IMG/VR virus record: IMGVR_UViG_3300025929_000001
Span: 31,418 to 95,417 of that record
Length of the DNA stretch: 64,000 nt
From: a virus
Direction: 5' to 3' (one strand)
The position numbers and the translations under genes were made by a program. Shown here one piece after another: positions 3,001 to 57,196 of the stretch. Position 1 is the first letter of the stretch. Each line of letters opens with the position of its first letter. The notes below the pieces were generated by a model. That model made no database searches. It had not been told where the DNA came from and saw only the letters and a program-made list of their open reading frames with translations.

Positions 3001-6000
3001 CTCGTTTGCTATCCAAAATCTTGCGCTGAACGAAGCTGAAAGGGAACTCTATACCGCCAAGCTGCAACAGATCCAGTCTGAGATTGCACTGCGTAAAGAC
3101 CTTGCTAACGTCCAGGCAGCAGGCGCAGGCATTGCTAGCGACAGCCCTGATGTTGTGGGCAAGCTTGCAGATGAAACCGCTAGGAAGTGGAAGAAGGCTG
3201 GCGAGGACATCAAGAAGTCGCTGCGGGATGCGTTTGGTGATGTTGGCGGTGCTATCGGCGACATGTTCAAAGTGTACGCTGACGGTCAAGCTAACACCAT
3301 CAAGATCAACGACGAGTACAACAAGAAACGTGCTGCCGCACTCGGTACCGAGAACATGCAGCAACGTCTGCTTGCTGCTGAGCAGGAAAAGGCCAACGAG
3401 CTTACCGCTAACCAGATGCATCAATGGGGCGGTATGGCGGATGCTGCGTCCAACTACTTTGACCAGTCCTCGACCGGTTACAAGACGTTGCATGCGGTTG
3501 CCCAAGTGTTCCACGCTGCTGAAATGGCGCTCATCATTGCCAAGCAAGTCCCGCTTGCGATCAACGCTGTGTTGGGTCAAGGCGCAGGCGATCCGTACAC
3601 TGCCTTCGCTCGCATGGCTGCAATGGCGGCGGTTGTGACTGGTCTTGGTGTGGCCATCAGTGCTAGCCAGGCCGGTGCAATGCGTGAGGACGTTGCTAAG
3701 AAAGCGCAAGAAACTCAAGGAACCGGAACTGTACTTGGTGACAGCACCGCTAAGTCCAACTCGATCCAAAAAGCACTCGACCTTATTGGCGACAATTCCG
3801 ACGTCACGCTGCGCTACACTTCGCAAATGGCGCAGTCGCTGAAGAATATCGAAAGCGGCATCGGTGGACTTGCTAACATCATCTTCCGCACTAGCGGCAT
3901 GACGTCGGGTCAAAACTTTGGTGTTCAAACTGGTATCCTGGCCACTAACAAAGGCGACCCGATCGCAAATGCGCTTGGTCTGGGCGGCGTTGCAAGCACG
4001 CTCGCTAACATGACCCCATTCCTGGGCGGCATCATCAACAAGCTGCAAAGCCTTTGGGGTAAGACCGAGCAAAGCATCGTTGACACCGGTCTGGAAGTTA
4101 AGGGTTCGATTAACGACCTGATGAACGGTACGGGTGTGCAGCAGTACGTCAACGTTGAGCAGAAAAAGACTAGCTGGTTCGGTCTGGTTAAGGACTATAG
4201 CTATAACACAGTCGAGCAGAACGCGGGTTCTGAGATTGCGCAGCAGTTTGGCACCATCTTTACCAACCTGAACAAGACCCTGACGGCTGCCGGTGCAGCG
4301 CTCGGTATGGGTGGCCAGCGCCTGCAAGAAGCTTTGGCTACTACGCAAATCAGCGTTGACCCGACTAGCTTTAAAGACCTGAAAGGTCAAGAGCTCGTCG
4401 ATGCGCTGAACGCAGTTGTCAGCAAAGCGTCCGACCAAGTCGCGCAAGCTGTATTGCCCGGCCTGGACAAGTTCATGCAAGTTGGTGAAGGCTACGCACA
4501 GACCGCGATTCGTGTGGCTACCGGTGCCGAGAAGGCGCAAGTATCCCTCCAGAAGCTGGGCATCAGCGCAATCAACTATGGTGACATCGTCAACAAGCAA
4601 GGTGACGTTGCTGCGGAAATTGTGCGTCAGTCTTTGGTTGCACGCGAGACGAGCAGCCAGTTTATCATCTCCTGGAGCGGGATGTTCAACACCATTGCTT
4701 ACACGACCAGCGGCATCGGTGACATCATGAGCACCCTGAACGGTACTGCTGATGAAATGATTGCGACCTACAAGTCGCTCGTTGAAATCCGTCGTATTAT
4801 GATGGCCACAAACAGCAATCCGAACAACAATCGGACGGGTGGCAACCTGACGCAAGCTACTGTCGCTGGTGCGGGTGGCGTTGAAGACCTTGCTAGCGGT
4901 ACAAGGGACTTCCTGGACAAATACTTCTCGGATACCGAAAAGACCCGCATCGAAACGCAACGCTTGACGGAAGAATTTAACCGCCTGGGTCTGCAACTGC
5001 CGCGCTCCAAAGAGGAGTTTCGTTCTCTGCTGGTTGGTATCGACCAAACGACCGAAGCAGGTCAAGCGCTGTACGGTAGCATGATTGTGCTGTCGGGTTC
5101 GTTTGCTGACCTGATGGACAGCGCTAAGAATGCTTCCGCTACGACCAACACCATCATTGACGACCAAATTGCTCGGGTTAACGACCTGAGCGAGAAGGCG
5201 CAGCGTTGGTTAGCGGTTCGTAACAGCGCAAGTGATCTGCAAGACAGCCTTACCGAGAACATGGGCGGCAAGGTTGACACTAGCGCACGTCAGGAAGCTC
5301 TGTGGGCGATGCTTGCACAAGGCGACAAGATCAGCCCTGAGCAGCAAATCTCGCTGGCGACCGAGCTGCAAAATCTGATACTGAAGAAGTACCAGACCGA
5401 GAAAGCTAACGCGACCGACCTGCTGAATGTGGCTAAGTCGCTGCGTAGCTACCTGGACAGCTTGAAGGTTGGCGATCTTGCTCCGGGTACCAGTACCGAG
5501 AAGCTGAACGAAGCTAAGTCGCAGTACCAACTGACGCTGAGCAAAGCACAAGGCGGTGACGCAACGGCTGCGGGTGATCTGCAAAACAAGGCGCAAGCTT
5601 ACCTGTCCCTGGCTCGTGATTACTACGCTTCGTCTGACCCATACAAGGAGATATTTGCTAGCGTCTACTCGTCGCTTGATCAATACGCTACGACCGCAGA
5701 AAGCGCTGAGCAGTTGCAAGCTGAAGGCAATGCAATTGCCCAAGGCCAGATCGACGAGCTGAGCAAGCTGCGCGATATCGTAAGTGTGGTCATGGAGCAC
5801 GCAGATACCAACTACGAACAAACCGTGACCGAGCTGCAAGCATCGCTCAACGCTCTGCAGATGATCAATACGTCACTGAATGTACTGTCGACGGTACCAG
5901 ACCTGCTCCGCGGTATGCCTGCGGAGCTGGCTGCGAACTTGCAGCAATCGCTTGGTGGTATCATCAACGCGGTTGGAAGTGCGAACGACCAAGCTGCAAT

Positions 6001-47862: not shown

Positions 47863-48134
47863 ATTTTGCCAATAGGTTTCTTCTCTTTACGCTCGAAAAT
47901 CGATATTGGCATTTTCGGGAACTTTGCTTGCATGGACTTGACAGTTTCAACAAACGCTGCCAAGTTTTGAGATTGCATCCGTTGCATCTTACCGCCAATG
48001 TTCATAACTGCGACATAGGTTATAATCTCGGAGTGGTTGCCCACAATACGACCGAGTGCGCGATCTTCTTTCTCAATCGCTGCGGCAATTGCACGCTGTA
48101 GACCTTGTTGCTCGACTATGGTGGCACCGGACAT
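47859..48134 (-). CDS. Hypothetical protein
   Basis: AGGAGAAATATC-ATG. Confidence 0.6.
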   Translation of the reverse strand: MSGATIVEQQGLQRAIAAAIEKEDRALGRIVGNHSEIITYVAVMNIGGKMQRMQSQNLAAFVETVKSMQAKFPKMPISIFERKEKKPIGKI

Positions 48135-48294
48135 GATATTTCTCCTAAATGAACCTTCTGAACTCCATCTGCTAAACGTGCGTTTATAGCGTTTATTTTA
48201 GCACATAGGGGGTAGGGTGCAAGCGCTTAAATTTGCGTGCGGTAGGGTGTTTAAAACGGGTTAAAAGCGATAGTTTTACGGGGTTAAACCCCAA

Positions 48295-48361
48295 CCAGAC
48301 AGGGTCCGTAAAGACCCTGTTTCGTCTAATTAATAGATGTAATTAATAGACTCATCAGTGG
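48295..48361 (-). ncRNA. Type I hammerhead ribozyme HH-A (cleavage GUC| between 48298 and 48297)
   Basis: CCA-CUGAUGA-[GUCUAUUAAU uacaucu AUUAA u UAGAC]-GAAA-[CAGGGUC uuuacg GACCCUG]-UC|UGG. The core is intact but stem I is short. Confidence 0.85.
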
Positions 48362-49461
48362 GACTGTTGCTGCGAATCGATTTCGGACAGCGTGCTAAGC
48401 AAGACACCGATGTTGCCTCGGACTTTCTCGAACTTAAGGTTCGCAGCCTTCAATGCTTCTTCGTGCTTGTGCGGAATCATGTTGACCATTAACAAAACCC
48501 GATCCGCACTAGCTGCCATGCTTTTGAGCTTGTGGACCGATTCGTCAGTGTGGTAAAAGGTCAGCTTAAACTTATCGCCGAACTTATCCTTTACTTCTTC
48601 AATGTGTATGGACTTAAGTAGTCCTGCGACGACTATCTTTTGTTTGCTAACAGTCGGTTCCATGGCTACCCCGATCGGGTTGTGTCTGATTGGACTTCGA
48701 TTGTGCGTCTGTGGGCGTAACATGTCTTGTACCTCCGATGATTTGAGAATGTCTAGTACGTTAACCTTAAATCGGTCAGCGAGTTTGTCCAGCAATGCGT
48801 CCAGCAATTGACCTGCGGTAAAGTCTGCCGGTGTAGCAGCTAGCGCGAGCGCTACAGGTTCCGTTATAGCTGGTGCGGGCTCCGGTACGCTGGCAGCAAC
48901 AAGGTCCACCATGTCTGCAAGCCAGTGCGCGTTGACCTTAATGTTCCCGATTGGAATGCGCCGCCTGTCTTCTGCCAAACATGATGCCTGGGCTTGGTCG
49001 AGCGCCTGGCTTAAGCTTACGAACGGTTGCTTCCTGCGGATAACCGCAACCTCATGCGCAAGCGTGATGCGCTCGTCGTGTGACCACACAATCTTAGGCT
49101 TCCGTCCCTTGATACCTTCAGGAACTTCTCGAACGACCGGTGTAGTCAGTTCGACGCTAGGTGTAGGTTGAAGCGGCCCTACGAACTCGGGCACGTCCGG
49201 TTGCTTTAACCGATACTTGTAAGCCCGCTGACCACCTGACTTATCGACTTCTAATGTGTGGTTATTAACCAGCATCTGAATTCGATTAGCCACCATCTTC
49301 TTATCATACGTAGAGCAGACATCCATTATATCAGCAGACTTTGCCCAGAGGTTAGCGGTGTTATTGAACATGTCAATGATCAGTTTACCTACCTGCGAAC
49401 GGGCTTCCGTCTGCGACTCGCTTACTACCATGCGAGCGTGTTGTATCTCTATGTTGTTCAT
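48355..49461 (-). CDS. Multidomain hypothetical protein (N-terminal winged-helix-like, C-terminal DUF2325-like alpha/beta)
   Basis: 368 aa; AGGAG RBS; the stop codon is the UGA of the hammerhead core. Confidence 0.7.
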   Translation of the reverse strand: MNNIEIQHARMVVSESQTEARSQVGKLIIDMFNNTANLWAKSADIMDVCSTYDKKMVANRIQMLVNNHTLEVDKSGGQRAYKYRLKQPDVPEFVGPLQPTPSVELTTPVVREVPEGIKGRKPKIVWSHDERITLAHEVAVIRRKQPFVSLSQALDQAQASCLAEDRRRIPIGNIKVNAHWLADMVDLVAASVPEPAPAITEPVALALAATPADFTAGQLLDALLDKLADRFKVNVLDILKSSEVQDMLRPQTHNRSPIRHNPIGVAMEPTVSKQKIVVAGLLKSIHIEEVKDKFGDKFKLTFYHTDESVHKLKSMAASADRVLLMVNMIPHKHEEALKAANLKFEKVRGNIGVLLSTLSEIDSQQQSH

Positions 49462-49470
49462 TGCTGTCTC

Positions 49471-49746
49471 CTAGTTCAAACGGGTTATCTTGGCAAACTT
49501 ACCTTGTTCCATGCTCCAGAAGTTGCCGTTTATCATGGAGCCGGCGTCGTTCTTAGCGAACGCTGCGGGTGCTAACGCTTGCTGATCTTCCAGCCCTTCC
49601 AGAACCAACTGCACTTCGCTGACGAAGGTGTCAGTACGTTCGCATATCAGCTTGGGGACGTTGCGGTGTATCTGGTATATGCGAGCCGTTTTATATAACG
49701 AGTCACCCTTCTTGGTTTCGTAGTAGGTATAGACGAAGTGTTTCAT
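49471..49746 (-). CDS. Hypothetical protein
   Basis: AGGAG RBS. Confidence 0.65.
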   Translation of the reverse strand: MKHFVYTYYETKKGDSLYKTARIYQIHRNVPKLICERTDTFVSEVQLVLEGLEDQQALAPAAFAKNDAGSMINGNFWSMEQGKFAKITRLN

Positions 49747-49767: not shown

Positions 49768-49796
49768 AAAAACCCCGGCAAACATCACCGGGGCTT
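49768..49796 (-). terminator. Intrinsic terminator
   Basis: GCCCCGGUGA-ugu-UUGCCGGGGU-UUUU on the - strand. Confidence 0.75.
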
Positions 49797-49814: not shown

Positions 49815-50330
49815 TTAAGATTGCTGGCCTTGCTTGGCAAGCTCGTCGAACTTTTCCGCAATCACACCTTGCAGACCATCGTAGCAGCCGTCGACATACT
49901 CGGCGGTTTGGATGCCTTGGTCAGCTTGGCCGCCAGCGACGTCGATTTCGCGGAACAGGATTGCAGCCAGTGCAAGCTGGGCGATGCCGGCTTCCATTAT
50001 CTGGTTTGCAAAGAACATGCGTGCATCCTGTCCTTGCGCCGGTTGGGCCGCTTGTTGTGTCGCTTGGGTTTGCGCTGGCGCGGTTTGAGCTTGTTGCGCA
50101 ACGGCTGCGCCACCCTGCTCCCCGCCAAGGGTTTCAGCGAGGTCGCCGTTGCTTTGCTCATTCCCGTTCTGACCGCCGGTGTTCGTAACGTTACCGATGC
50201 GACCGTCGGTGGCCGGGTCAGTAACTCGACCACGACCATCGCTACCCTGATTGGTTTGCTTGGCCTGAGTGGGCTGTGCTGCGCCCTGGCGGGTTTGATT
50301 TGAACGACCGCGAGTGCCTGTTGTTGCCAT
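49815..50330 (-). CDS. Gln/Gly-rich low-complexity protein with a helical C-terminus
   Basis: AGGAGCAATATC-ATG at 50330; lies 37 nt downstream of the HH-B cleavage site. Confidence 0.7.
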   Translation of the reverse strand: MATTGTRGRSNQTRQGAAQPTQAKQTNQGSDGRGRVTDPATDGRIGNVTNTGGQNGNEQSNGDLAETLGGEQGGAAVAQQAQTAPAQTQATQQAAQPAQGQDARMFFANQIMEAGIAQLALAAILFREIDVAGGQADQGIQTAEYVDGCYDGLQGVIAEKFDELAKQGQQS

Positions 50331-50362
50331 GATATTGCTCCTATAAAGATGCGATGAAGTTA

Positions 50363-50438
50363 CCGCATACACAATAAGCCCGCGTGTAAGGCGAGCTATT
50401 GTGTTTCGTCCGAGAACCACTCGGACTCATCAGTGCGG
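50363..50438 (-). ncRNA. Type I hammerhead ribozyme HH-B (cleavage GUA| between 50368 and 50367)
   Basis: CCGCA-CUGAUGA-[GUCCGAG ugguu CUCGGAC]-GAAA-[CACAAUAGCUCGC cuuacac GCGGGCU u AUUGUG]-UA|UGCGG. Confidence 0.93.
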
Positions 50439-50439
50439 A

Positions 50440-51252
50440 TTACGCTGCGGGTGCAGGCTGTTCTGCTGCCGATTGTTCGGTAGCGGCTGCTGGCGCTTCT
50501 TGCCCTTCCGGGAGTTCGAAGTTACCAGCGGGGCCGAACCCGACCGTCCACACCGGCGCAGGCTGTTGAGCTTGCACTGGCGTTGGCAGAGCGACGCGAC
50601 CGCGAACACCGTGATATGCACGCCACCGAGCGTACTGCGTTTTGATGGTGTGGTCATTCATACCGCGGATACGGCTGTCTGCTTTGATCTCCGCAATGGT
50701 TGCCGGCGTCGTTCCCGGATGCGACTTGCTGATCTCGTCCGCAACATCCCAGACCGTACCGGTCAGCGTACCAGACGCGGGGCGGGTGATGTTGTTGCGG
50801 GTCAGCTTAGCTGGCCGCGGAGGTTGTGGGGCCTGGCCTTGCAGCAGTTGGGTGACTGCGTTCGGGTCGGAGATGCCCAGTTCCTTAGCGACGTTGGCGG
50901 CTGCTTCTTCCATTTTTTGCTTGAACTCGGCAGCGACCTGTTCCGGAGTGCGATGCAGCGGGTCGGCACCATCGGGTACCACTGGAGCGGCGAGATGCTG
51001 CGCGACGAAGGCGTGCGCTTGGTCCGGCTGGATTGCGCGGCGTTCTTCGCGTTCGCGCCGTTCCTGGGCGATAACTTCTGGCGGCAGGTCGGATGCGGCC
51101 TGGTCGTTGGTGTTCGTGGTGTCTTGGGCACCTTGCAGCTTGAGCTCGTCTGCGTGCTGCTTGTCTTCAGCAGACATAACCTTGGATGCGATGGGCTTAG
51201 CAGCGACGGATTTACGACCTTTTGGTGCGACGTGGGATTGAACGTTTGCCAT
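50440..51252 (-). CDS. Protein with the paralogous helical domain, flanked by two hammerheads
   Basis: NNITRP.SG..TG.VW.VAD...T.KTQYARW; AGGAGCAATATC-ATG. Confidence 0.8.
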   Translation of the reverse strand: MANVQSHVAPKGRKSVAAKPIASKVMSAEDKQHADELKLQGAQDTTNTNDQAASDLPPEVIAQERREREERRAIQPDQAHAFVAQHLAAPVVPDGADPLHRTPEQVAAEFKQKMEEAAANVAKELGISDPNAVTQLLQGQAPQPPRPAKLTRNNITRPASGTLTGTVWDVADEISKSHPGTTPATIAEIKADSRIRGMNDHTIKTQYARWRAYHGVRGRVALPTPVQAQQPAPVWTVGFGPAGNFELPEGQEAPAAATEQSAAEQPAPAA

Positions 51253-51378
51253 GATATTGCTCCTATGATGAACTGCGGTTGGTGCTGGAAGGTTCCAGCT
51301 GGCTTAACTATATAACAATTTTGCGGTAGCGGTTGGCGTTTAAACAAACTTTCGCTAGCTTGCTGATAGGCCACCTTT

Positions 51379-51443
51379 ACTGCTGACGTAGACCTTAAGT
51401 GTCTGGGTCTACGTTTCGGATCATTAATCCTCATCAGAGCAGT
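51379..51443 (-). ncRNA. Type I hammerhead ribozyme HH-C (cleavage GUC| between 51385 and 51384)
   Basis: ACUGCU-CUGAUGA-[GGAU uaaug AUCC]-GAAA-[CGUAGACC cagacacuuaa GGUCUACG]-UC|AGCAGU. Confidence 0.94.
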
Positions 51444-51444
51444 T

Positions 51445-51726
51445 CTATGAATGAAACTCGTACTCGGCTTTCGGGGCACGCTGAATGCATCCCATAGTCA
51501 GGCGGAAGTCTGTGTGATAGCGGATGTTAATGATCCACTCCAGCCACCCTGGATGCTTGTAAGCAGGCGCATCTGCGGGGACGCGCTCTTGCGGGTAGAT
51601 GTCTATAAGCTTCGCGCATTTGACGTGCTGCGCTACGCGAGCTAAGACAGCTTCCAGCATCTGCTGATCCAGTTCCCAACCGAGAACGTTGTGAATGTTA
51701 ATCTGGCAGGTTTTATCTTGACTCAT
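51445..51726 (-). CDS. Hypothetical protein
   Basis: AGGAG RBS; the TAG stop lies 1 nt before HH-C stem I. Confidence 0.65.
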   Translation of the reverse strand: MSQDKTCQINIHNVLGWELDQQMLEAVLARVAQHVKCAKLIDIYPQERVPADAPAYKHPGWLEWIINIRYHTDFRLTMGCIQRAPKAEYEFHS

Positions 51727-51803
51727 GGCATTGCTCCTAAGTTGGGTTGAACTAGCTGCTAAACGCACGCTTATATTAGCAGCGTTTAACAGCTTTGGGC
51801 GTT

Positions 51804-56939: not shown

Positions 56940-57176
56940 TTATGCTTGTGGTAAGTTGAAAAGCTCGATGTCGGTGTAGTTACCATCGGCATCTTTGAGT
57001 GCAAGAGTAAGCTTTGCCTGGTCTTGTTGAATTGCGTATTCGTACAAGCGAAGCGCATTGCGGATCACCTCTGTGTACGAAGTAGCTTCGCTCGCTTGCT
57101 TAATCCATTCCAAGCGCCGATAGCTATTTTCTGGTATCTTGAGCTTGAACTCGCGTGTTGGTTCTTTTTTAAGCAT
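56940..57176 (-). CDS. Ribbon-helix-helix-like DNA-binding protein
   Basis: F.LKIP..SY.RLE.IK....S.TEVIRNALRLYE. Confidence 0.65.
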   Translation of the reverse strand: MLKKEPTREFKLKIPENSYRRLEWIKQASEATSYTEVIRNALRLYEYAIQQDQAKLTLALKDADGNYTDIELFNLPQA

Positions 57177-57196
57177 GATATTGCTCCTATGGTGTA

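What the first reader, a model, noticed from the sequence alone, without database searches (positions are those of the whole stretch)
50368..51384. One gene excised between two hammerheads: candidate 1017-nt circularisable mRNA
Seen: HH-C cuts 132 nt upstream of the ATG of 50440..51252, and HH-B cuts about 70 nt after its stop. The released fragment (51384 to 50368, 1017 nt) contains the complete RBS and ORF. Established: such a fragment has a 5'-OH and a 2',3'-cyclic phosphate, exactly the ends RtcB ligases join, and ribozyme-flanked RNAs circularise this way in viroid-like and engineered systems. Inference: this could be a naturally circularised or otherwise exonuclease-resistant phage mRNA for a putative DNA-binding protein. 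Caveat: a TATAGT -10-like sequence near 51307-51312 could start some transcripts inside the interval.
Basis: inference. Interest (0 to 1): 0.8.

Follow-up and report, generated by a model that had tools for sequence, protein, structure and literature searches.

The report
Hammerhead ribozymes flanking a phage gene
Two intact-looking self-cutting RNA motifs (hammerhead ribozymes) do sit on either side of one gene in this 95-kb phage, but this layout has been known in phages since 2011, most likely cuts a long transcript into single-gene messages, and nothing in the sequence supports a circular mRNA.

Summary
On the minus strand, two canonical type I hammerheads flank ORF 50440..51252. HH-C spans 51443-51379 and cuts after C51385. 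HH-B spans 50438-50363 and cuts after A50368. Double cleavage would release the stated 1017-nt RNA. A strict scan of the whole genome finds only these two, against 0.01 expected by chance.

The circular-mRNA reading finds no support in the sequence:
- The two ribozymes have different stems I, so a hybrid hammerhead forms only 3 of 6 pairs, with A·A next to the core.
- The fragment ends are no more complementary than shuffled controls.
- The phage encodes no RtcB or RNA ligase.
- Perreault et al. 2011 described this layout, raised the circular idea, and reported finding no circles.

Each hammerhead here starts 0-1 nt after a stop codon or overlaps it. The same placement holds across 119 viral hammerheads I surveyed. 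Related uncultured phages keep a hammerhead beside the same gene family, but on varying sides. The best reading is that ribozymes segment a polycistronic transcript into linear messages with defined, structured ends.

This is a new member of a known kind. This scan has flagged the same layout before on other DNA (93 notes in at least 86 genomes).

The parts
51379..51443 (-). HH-C, a type I hammerhead. It cuts after C51385 (GUC site). It starts 1 nt after the TAG stop (51447-51445) of upstream ORF 51445..51768.
   Evidence: Sequence read; core pattern; canonical fold; strict scanner (stems 6/5/9).
50363..50438 (-). HH-B, a type I hammerhead. It cuts after A50368 (GUA site). It starts 1 nt after the TAA stop (50442-50440) of ORF270.
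   Evidence: stems 5/7/9. Weak RAGATH-1-hammerhead hit of 23.8 bits.
50368..51384 (-). The 1017-nt RNA that double cleavage would release: a 132-nt leader, ORF270, and a 72-nt tail that is the body of HH-B.
   Evidence: Calculated. Folded: the 5' end folds locally, the 3' end keeps stems II and III, and there is no end-to-end pairing.
50440..51252 (-). ORF270, a 270-aa protein of a phage-only family. It has a conserved C-terminal domain (about residues 150-223, NGITRPA..WD.ADEIS..NDHTIKTQYARWR..HG..GR) with a winged-helix-like predicted fold. Function unknown.
   Evidence: alignment A1; pLDDT above 90 for residues 150-220; Z about 5 to winged-helix domains.
51253..51384 (-). Leader between the HH-C cut and the ATG. 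It holds the GTTTAAAC palindrome (51338-51345), a TATAGT -10-like hexamer (51312-51307), a hairpin (51299-51284), and the translation initiation region ATAGGAGCAATATCATGGCAA (51266-51246).
   Evidence: The sigma-70 consensus scan calls no promoter here.
48293..48383 (-). HH-A, a third and looser type I hammerhead (context). The TGA stop codon of ORF 48355..49461 lies inside its CUGAUGA core. It cuts after C48298.
   Evidence: Its stem I is only 3 bp plus a bulge.
49815..50330 (-). ORF171, the gene downstream of HH-B. Its ATG lies 37 nt after the cut and it has the identical 21-nt translation initiation region.
49770..49796 (-). Intrinsic-terminator-like hairpin with a U tract, just after ORF171.
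   Evidence: 12 pairs, 6 of them G-C, followed by TTACTTTTTA.
51445..51768 (-). ORF107, the upstream gene. After HH-C cleavage, its message would end in the HH-C body.

Best explanation
Three co-oriented type I hammerhead ribozymes cut the leftward (minus-strand) polycistronic transcript of this complete 95-kb phage into gene-sized linear mRNAs. The phage is uncultured, and its primase/helicase is about 52% identical to that of Pseudomonas and Xanthomonas phages including the Queuovirinae genus Nipunavirus. Each ribozyme starts 0-1 nt after the stop codon of the gene before it or overlaps that stop. Cleavage therefore leaves the upstream message ending in the compact ribozyme body (stems II and III) with a 2',3'-cyclic phosphate, which should act as a 3' exonuclease block. 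The downstream message begins with a defined 5'-OH leader carrying its own Shine-Dalgarno sequence, and a 5'-OH end is a poor entry point for 5'-end-dependent RNase E decay. This uncouples the stability and translation of neighbouring cistrons, in the way engineered ribozyme insulators such as RiboJ do. ORF270 is one such unit, 1017 nt if both cuts occur. Shown here: the motifs, their improbability by chance, their placement at stop codons, and the recurrence of hammerheads next to this gene family in related phages. Inferred: that the ribozymes cleave in vivo, and the effects on stability and expression.
For: Both motifs have every conserved core nucleotide, perfect stems next to the core, and the canonical fold as their minimum-energy structure. 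Only 0.01 such motifs are expected per shuffled genome. All three hammerheads abut or overlap an upstream stop codon. In 119 distinct type I hammerheads from viral contigs, the stop of an ORF of at least 50 codons ends within -3..+6 nt of stem I in 45% of cases, against 4% at random positions. A further 18 use the UGA inside the core as the stop. The next SD-preceded start codon lies a median of 37.5 nt after the cut, and HH-B to ORF171 is 37 nt. A quarter of viral locus-strands with one hammerhead have two or more, spaced 0.2-6 kb apart. Homologues of ORF270 in uncultured phages have hammerheads beside them: both sides in L121/L226, upstream in L228 and L232, downstream in L125/L229. The family of related viral hammerheads shows compensatory changes in stem III. 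Literature: hammerheads flanking single genes in prophages cleave in vitro, and for the one Agrobacterium array tested, in E. coli, and are proposed to process long phage transcripts (PMC3088659). Prophage-associated hammerheads cleave in vivo in Desulfovibrio (PMC8782182). The polycistronic-processing role is still called a suggestion in the 2019 review (PMC6765202).
Against: There are no transcript data, so cleavage in vivo is not shown. No stabilising loop-loop or pseudoknot contact could be established for HH-B or HH-C; only 4-bp candidates were seen by eye. They could therefore be slow at physiological Mg2+. No Rfam model reaches threshold. The promoter structure of the region is unresolved, because promoter-like hits do not exceed chance. 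It is therefore not shown that one transcript spans both ribozymes. The stability consequences rest on general knowledge of bacterial RNA decay, recalled from memory and not tested here.
Confidence: 0.65

Rival explanations
1. Circular mRNA. After both cuts, a host RtcB-type ligase, or hammerhead self-ligation, joins A51384 to A50368 and gives a 1017-nt covalently closed, exonuclease-resistant message for ORF270.
For: The end chemistry is right for RtcB. Engineered ribozyme-flanked mRNAs are circularised by native RtcB in E. coli and are translated (PMC12628768). In some other phage arrays, neighbouring hammerheads share an identical stem I, so a hybrid ribozyme could form. This holds for 6 of 12 adjacent pairs from the contigs fetched with the stem-I-neutral pattern, against 2.3% for cross-locus pairs, and for the pair L125a/L125b.
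Against: Here the hybrid stem I forms only 3 of 6 pairs, with A·A next to the core, and folding does not rebuild the junction. The termini are no more complementary than shuffles, and in the minimum-energy fold each end is locked into local structure. The phage has no RtcB or RNA ligase, and the host is unknown. Relatives do not consistently bracket this gene. Perreault et al. looked for circular or spliced products from such arrays and found none. The ORF has a stop codon, so a circle would add nothing beyond stability.
Confidence: 0.05
2. The two ribozymes belong to different transcription units. ORF270 is mainly transcribed from its own, possibly activator-dependent, promoter inside the 132-nt leader. 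HH-C then only trims the 3' end of ORF107's message, and most ORF270 mRNA starts with a 5'-triphosphate near the hairpin at 51299-51284 and ends at HH-B.
For: The leader is unusually long: 132 nt against a median of 37.5 nt in viral hammerheads. It contains a TATAGT hexamer, the genome-enriched palindrome GTTTAAAC (7 copies against 1.2 expected), and a block of about 19 nt, AGTTTGnnnAAACGCCAAC, shared with the equivalent leader of the distant relative L121. A hairpin follows.
Against: The consensus scan finds no sigma-70-type promoter here. There is no -35 match and no proper extended -10. L125 lacks the conserved block. The block could be an operator or an RNA structure instead of a promoter.
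Confidence: 0.2
3. Cleavage is regulated instead of constitutive. Because stem I begins 1 nt after the stop codon, a terminating ribosome covers stem I and the core. Cleavage rate would then depend on translation of the upstream gene or on Mg2+ or other factors.
For: The tight stop-codon abutment is general. No obvious tertiary contact was found, so these may be slow 'minimal-like' ribozymes. Perreault et al. suggest that slower phage variants may be conditionally active.
Against: This is purely inferential. Abutment may simply reflect compact phage intergenic spacers, since hammerheads are also close to the next start codon.
Confidence: 0.07
4. The motifs are inactive relics or chance look-alikes.
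For: No Rfam model reaches its gathering score. There is no close homologue of this phage with which to show covariation in these particular copies.
Against: All invariant core positions are intact in all three copies, and the stems are perfect. Chance expectation is 0.01 per genome. The intergenic placement is the same as in 119 other viral hammerheads. Rfam also misses textbook relatives.
Confidence: 0.03

Closest known systems
Clustered hammerhead ribozymes flanking single genes or short gene blocks in prophages (Perreault et al. 2011, PLoS Comput Biol, PMC3088659)
   Same: Several co-oriented hammerheads sit within a few kb in phage DNA and bracket individual genes of varying identity. The proposed role is to process long phage transcripts into single-gene or operon-length mRNAs. 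Circular or spliced products were already considered there.
   Different: The tested arrays were in Clostridium, Azorhizobium and Agrobacterium prophages, and the Agrobacterium one is type II. Here there are three type I ribozymes in a complete, uncultured, DTR-ended 95-kb virion-type genome, and they bracket a different gene family. No activity data exist for these copies.
Widespread viral type I hammerhead subgroup with stem I CCACA/UGUGG (61 IMG/VR contigs; includes relatives L121, L125 and L228)
   Same: Same topology and same core. Same placement directly after a stop codon and a short distance before the next ribosome-binding site. Members lie next to homologues of ORF270.
   Different: The window's HH-B (CCGCA/UGCGG) and HH-C (CUGCU/AGCAG) have other stem I sequences and longer stem III hairpins.
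Ribozyme-flanked circular RNAs: avsunviroids, retrozymes, and the engineered Tornado system
   Same: Flanking self-cleaving ribozymes leave a 5'-OH and a 2',3'-cyclic phosphate, the substrates of RtcB or tRNA ligase.
   Different: In those systems the two ends come from copies of the same ribozyme, or from designed complementary arms, so that the ends are held together. Here the two hammerheads differ, the ends do not pair, and no junction evidence exists.
Engineered ribozyme insulators
   Same: A hammerhead between cistrons removes upstream context and gives the downstream gene a fixed short leader.
   Different: Those are synthetic parts derived from a plant satellite RNA ribozyme. The natural phage elements also form the 3' end of the upstream message.

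Membership tests
Hammerhead ribozyme (type I) | Conserved core: C3 U4 G5 A6 N7 G8 A9, G12 A13 A14, the A15.1-U16.1 pair, and H17 (not G) at the cleavage site | tested here: met
   HH-C: CUGAUGA ... GAAA ... U-C|A. HH-B: CUGAUGA ... GAAA ... U-A|U. HH-A: the same core with U-C|U.
Hammerhead ribozyme (type I) | Three helices radiate from the core, with Watson-Crick pairs directly adjacent to it (10.1-11.1, 1.1-2.1, 15.1-16.1). Stem I is open; stems II and III are closed by loops. | tested here: met
   Stems I/II/III are 6/5/9 bp in HH-C and 5/7/9 bp in HH-B by the strict scanner. The unconstrained minimum-energy fold is the three-way junction. HH-A has only a 3-bp stem I plus a bulge.
Hammerhead ribozyme (type I) | More motifs than chance would give | tested here: met
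   Mean of 0.01 hits in 100 shuffled genomes against 2 observed, both on the same strand, intergenic, and 1 kb apart.
Hammerhead ribozyme (type I) | Tertiary contact between stem I (or its flank) and loop II, which gives fast cleavage at physiological Mg2+ | tested here: inconclusive
   Only 4-bp candidate pseudoknots were seen by eye (loop II AAUG with upstream CAUU in HH-C; loop II GGUU with downstream AACU in HH-B). There is no covariation to test them.
Hammerhead ribozyme (type I) | Score above the gathering threshold of an Rfam hammerhead model | tested here: not met
   Best hits: RAGATH-1-hammerhead 23.8 bits (threshold 56.3) and Hammerhead_3 17.7 bits (threshold 48.5). This is a property of the models and does not define the class. 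The same search misses consensus-perfect type I hammerheads in L121 and L125.
Hammerhead ribozyme (type I) | Compensatory base changes in the stems among homologues | tested here: inconclusive
   In the alignment of 38 related viral type I hammerheads plus L121b and HH-C (A4), two stem III pairs show 18-19 double changes. No close homologue of HH-B or HH-C themselves was obtainable, because the tool that could have fetched the 63%-identical relative's contig (look-up of encoding contigs) was closed.
Hammerhead ribozyme (type I) | Site-specific self-cleavage | not testable with these tools
   Needs in vitro transcription or RNA end mapping.
Clustered phage hammerheads that segment operons (Perreault 2011) | Two or more co-oriented hammerheads within a few kb of phage DNA, flanking single genes or short gene blocks in the sense orientation | tested here: met
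   HH-C, HH-B and HH-A lie on the minus strand at 51.4, 50.4 and 48.3 kb, in sense with all flanking ORFs. The record is a complete phage genome with direct terminal repeats.
Ribozyme-generated circular RNA (viroid / retrozyme / Tornado-like) | After cleavage, the two ends are held together, either by rebuilding one ribozyme from the two halves or by complementary terminal arms | tested here: not met
   The hybrid stem I forms 3 of 6 pairs with A·A at 1.1-2.1, and folding the hybrid loses the junction. The terminal duplex is -19.0 kcal/mol against -21.9 +/- 3.4 for shuffles.
Ribozyme-generated circular RNA (viroid / retrozyme / Tornado-like) | A ligase for 5'-OH and 2',3'-cP ends is available | tested here: inconclusive
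   The phage genome has no RtcB (PF01139) or RNA_ligase (PF09414) match. The host is unknown, and many bacteria encode RtcB (10 of the 14 control genomes).
Ribozyme-generated circular RNA (viroid / retrozyme / Tornado-like) | A covalent junction is detected | not testable with these tools
   Needs RNA data.

The most novel reading that the evidence does not exclude
The 1017-nt ORF270 message, cut out by HH-C and HH-B, is joined end to end by a host RtcB-type ligase during infection. That would make it a natural circular, translatable bacteriophage mRNA.
Probability: 0.05. Interest if true: 0.85.

Novelty: new member of a known kind. Interest (0 to 1): 0.25.

Why it matters
As it stands, this is one more clean example of a phage habit described in 2011 whose purpose is still not settled experimentally. 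The 2019 review PMC6765202 still calls the processing role a suggestion.

Three things here add a little. First, the same unknown, probably DNA-binding protein family has hammerheads beside it in several distantly related uncultured phages. Second, there is a quantified design rule for viral type I hammerheads: they begin at or inside the upstream stop codon and end about 37 nt before the next start codon. Third, neighbouring hammerheads sometimes share an identical stem I and sometimes do not.

These points give concrete constructs for testing whether the ribozymes act as natural insulators and 3'-end stabilisers. A natural circular mRNA would be a notable discovery, but the sequence gives no reason to expect one at this locus.

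Tried and rejected
- Rfam at gathering score on the whole window: no match. In E-value mode only sub-threshold hammerhead hits appeared.
- Megablast of the region against INPHARED phages: no match.
- tblastn of ORF270 against phages: only C-terminal-domain matches.
- Cultured relatives carrying the domain (Achromobacter phage vB_Ade_ART, Pseudomonas phage JG054): no hammerhead.
The contig of the closest homologue (P0002, 63% identity) could therefore not be examined, and covariation in HH-B and HH-C themselves could not be tested.
- Genome-contig scan for prophage copies of the family: none found. No host could be assigned.
- Pfam and PDB sequence searches for ORF270: nothing. Foldseek against PDB: nothing significant. 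VIA-align gave only generic winged-helix matches at Z about 5.
- Sigma-70 promoter scans: hits do not exceed chance, and none lies in the leader.
- I did not build a covariance model. MAFFT put stem II out of register in alignments A2 and A4, and custom alignments cannot be uploaded.
- Rejected: hammerhead self-ligation through a hybrid ribozyme at this locus, and Tornado-like terminal pairing.
- Rejected: the 21-nt translation initiation region is not specific to hammerhead-downstream genes. Similar regions precede other genes in the block (family D1).

Full report
WHAT IS THERE

The window is bases 31,418-95,417 of a complete 95,417-bp virus record with direct terminal repeats. It has no near match among deposited phages. 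Its primase/helicase is about 52% identical to that of Pseudomonas and Xanthomonas siphoviruses of the NP1/PaMx25/JG054 group, and JG054 is classified as Queuovirinae, Nipunavirus.

Between 53 and 48 kb all genes run on the minus strand. Read on that strand, the order is:
- ORF107 (51768..51445)
- HH-C
- ORF270 (51252..50440)
- HH-B
- ORF171 (50330..49815)
- a terminator-like hairpin (49796-49770)
- two more ORFs (49746..49471 and 49461..48355)
- HH-A

CHECKING THE OBSERVATION

HH-C reads ACUGCU-CUGAUGA-[GGAUUAAUGAUCC]-GAAA-[9-bp stem III]-UC|AGCAGU. HH-B reads CCGCA-CUGAUGA-[GUCCGAG UGGUU CUCGGAC]-GAAA-[stem III]-UA|UGCGG. The cuts fall after C51385 and A50368.

ViennaRNA, run without constraints, returns the canonical three-way junction for both elements (z = -4.2 and -3.7; 0 of 200 shuffles fold as well). 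A strict scanner requiring the core, H17 and contiguous pairs next to the core finds only these two in the whole genome. One hundred shuffled genomes gave a mean of 0.01 hits.

Rfam gives no hit at gathering score, and only weak RAGATH-1-hammerhead and Hammerhead_3 hits. The same search also fails on consensus-perfect compact type I hammerheads in related contigs. I therefore treat the Rfam result as a limit of the models.

PLACEMENT

HH-C starts 1 nt after the TAG of ORF107. HH-B starts 1 nt after the TAA of ORF270. The TGA stop of ORF 48355..49461 lies inside the CUGAUGA core of HH-A.

I tested whether this is general, using viral contigs fetched with two hammerhead patterns:
- Of 119 distinct type I hammerheads, 77% have an ORF of at least 50 codons ending within -45..+9 nt of the core. 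The figure for random positions in the same loci is 18%.
- In 45% the stop ends within -3..+6 nt of stem I, against 4% in controls. Another 18 use the core's own UGA as the stop codon.
- The next SD-preceded start codon lies a median of 37.5 nt after the cut, with an interquartile range of 30-62 nt. HH-B to ORF171 is 37 nt. HH-C to ORF270 is 132 nt, which is unusually long.
- A quarter of locus-strands with one hammerhead have two or more, 0.2-6 kb apart.

One gene sitting between two hammerheads is therefore a common phage layout.

RELATIVES

ORF270 belongs to a phage-only family (24 proteins at E below 1e-5; alignment A1). The family has a well-conserved C-terminal domain. AlphaFold models residues 150-220 at pLDDT above 90. 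The fold resembles winged-helix domains only weakly (Z about 5).

In the cultured phages ART and JG054 the domain protein lies close to the 7-deazaguanine (QueE/C/D, and in ART FolE and tRNA-ribosyltransferase) genes, and there are no hammerheads.

Among uncultured contigs with full-length-like homologues, the picture varies:
- L121/L226 has type I hammerheads on both sides of the gene, with a small extra ORF inside the bracket. The downstream ribozyme starts 2 nt after the stop.
- L228 has one directly upstream.
- L232 has one upstream, with a small gene in between.
- L125/L229 has one 240 nt downstream and another after the next two genes.
- Twenty more distant loci have none.

A hammerhead next to this gene is thus a recurrent feature of the clade, but the exact bracketing is not conserved. 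This fits general operon segmentation better than a specific need to excise this one gene.

TESTING THE CIRCULAR-mRNA READING

In viroids, retrozymes and the Tornado design, the two ends are brought together because they are halves of one ribozyme or form designed arms. Here that does not happen:
- The 5' end left by HH-C (AGCAGU) pairs with HH-B's stem I strand (UCCGCA) at only 3 of 6 positions, with A·A at the critical 1.1-2.1 pair. Folding the hybrid loses the junction.
- The first 40 nt and last 90 nt form a duplex of -19.0 kcal/mol, no better than shuffled 5' ends (-21.9 +/- 3.4).
- In the minimum-energy fold of the fragment, the 5' end forms its own local hairpin (nt 2-62) and the 3' end keeps stems II and III.
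- The phage encodes neither RtcB nor an RNA ligase, and the host is unknown.

On the other side, native E. coli RtcB can circularise engineered ribozyme-flanked mRNAs (PMC12628768), so the idea is not impossible. Perreault et al. 2011 raised it explicitly for such arrays and reported that neither circular nor spliced products were detected, as data not shown. I put the probability at about 5%.

A side observation bears on the same idea. In other phage arrays, neighbouring hammerheads do sometimes share an identical 6-bp stem I. This is true of 6 of 12 adjacent pairs from contigs fetched with a stem-I-neutral pattern, against 2.3% of cross-locus pairs. L125a and L125b are identical in stem I while their stems II and III differ. 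In CCACA-type arrays, by contrast, neighbours often differ exactly at the 1.1-2.1 pair. This may simply reflect recent duplication. The pair in this window is of the incompatible kind.

THE INTERNAL-PROMOTER CAVEAT

The consensus scan calls no sigma-70 promoter in the leader. TATAGT (51312-51307) has no -35 partner. The leader is nevertheless atypically long. It contains the palindrome GTTTAAAC, which occurs 7 times in the window against 1.2 expected. It also shares the block AGTTTGnnnAAACGCCAAC with the equivalent leader in L121, followed by a hairpin (51299-51284). This could be an operator, an activator-dependent promoter, or an RNA structure. I give about 20% to the view that most ORF270 mRNA starts inside the interval. 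In that case HH-C serves only the upstream gene.

MOST LIKELY MECHANISM

The hammerheads cut the polycistronic transcript co-transcriptionally. Each upstream message then ends, just past its stop codon, in the folded ribozyme body with a 2',3'-cyclic phosphate. Each downstream message starts with a 5'-OH and a short leader with a strong Shine-Dalgarno sequence. The identical 21-nt ATAGGAGCAATATCATGGCAA precedes both ORF270 and ORF171, and similar regions precede other genes of the block.

By general knowledge of bacterial RNA decay, which I recall from memory and did not test here, such ends slow both 3' exonucleases and 5'-end-dependent RNase E entry. Cleavage would therefore insulate neighbouring cistrons from each other. 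The anatomy and the statistics are shown. Cleavage in vivo and its effects are inferred. The 2019 review still calls the processing role a suggestion (PMC6765202). In vivo cleavage of hammerheads near phage genes has been shown in Desulfovibrio (PMC8782182).

COMPARISON AND VERDICT

This is a new member of the known class 'clustered hammerheads flanking genes in phage DNA' (Perreault et al. 2011). This scan has flagged the same layout many times on other DNA (93 notes in at least 86 genomes), and follow-ups there reached the same verdict. I score interest at 0.25.

Noticed in passing
IMG/VR loci L003-L120 and L163-L223; in the window HH-A 48352-48358, HH-B 50438, HH-C 51443: Viral type I hammerheads sit at the upstream stop codon. 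In 53 of 119, the stop of an ORF of at least 50 codons ends within -3..+6 nt of stem I (4% at random positions). Another 18 use the UGA inside the CUGAUGA core as the stop. The next SD-preceded start lies a median of 37.5 nt after the cut. I did not find this design rule stated in the papers I read.
   Followed up: partly
L171 (=L125) 3126-3179 and 3961-4026; L112, L114, L117, L005; contrast L163, L169: Neighbouring co-oriented hammerheads share an identical 6-bp stem I in 6 of 12 pairs from contigs fetched with a stem-I-neutral pattern (2.3% for cross-locus pairs). In the L125 pair, stems II and III have diverged while stem I is identical. In CCACA-type arrays, neighbours often differ exactly at pair 1.1-2.1. 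Either recent duplication or selection on cross-pairing could explain this.
   Followed up: partly
L121/L226 3453-4547; L228 2931-2980; L232 1644-1695; L125/L229 4684-4733 (L125 coordinates): Homologues of ORF270 (36-45% identity) in four other uncultured phage contigs also have type I hammerheads beside them: both sides, upstream only, or downstream only. Cultured phages ART and JG054, which carry the same domain near their 7-deazaguanine genes, have none.
   Followed up: yes
window 51338-51345, also 29004, 29082, 34153, 46179, 54697, 60158: The palindrome GTTTAAAC occurs 7 times against 1.2 expected (0 of 100 shuffles reach 7). One copy lies in the ORF270 leader, inside a block (AGTTTGnnnAAACGCCAAC) shared with the leader of the L121 homologue, where the palindrome is GTTTGCGCAAAC. 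It may be an operator.
   Followed up: partly
window 51246-51266 and 50324-50344 (also 48130-48149, 57170-57190): An identical 21-nt translation initiation region, ATAGGAGCAATATCATGGCAA, precedes both ORF270 and ORF171. Close variants precede the gene after HH-A and other genes of the block.
   Followed up: partly
window 48349-48374 and 50424-50449: HH-A and HH-B are paralogous beyond the ribozyme. The last codons of the two upstream ORFs plus the 5' half of the hammerhead are 77% identical over 26 nt (family D8).
   Followed up: no
L121 3453-3502 and 4497-4547; L125 4684-4733 and 5519-5580: The Rfam 15 gathering-score search reports no hammerhead for these compact, consensus-perfect type I hammerheads. 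Rfam-based annotation therefore under-counts this phage subgroup.
   Followed up: partly
window 49770-49796 (minus strand): A strong intrinsic-terminator-like hairpin with a U tract lies directly after ORF171. It suggests that the ORF270-ORF171 stretch may end a transcription unit.
   Followed up: no
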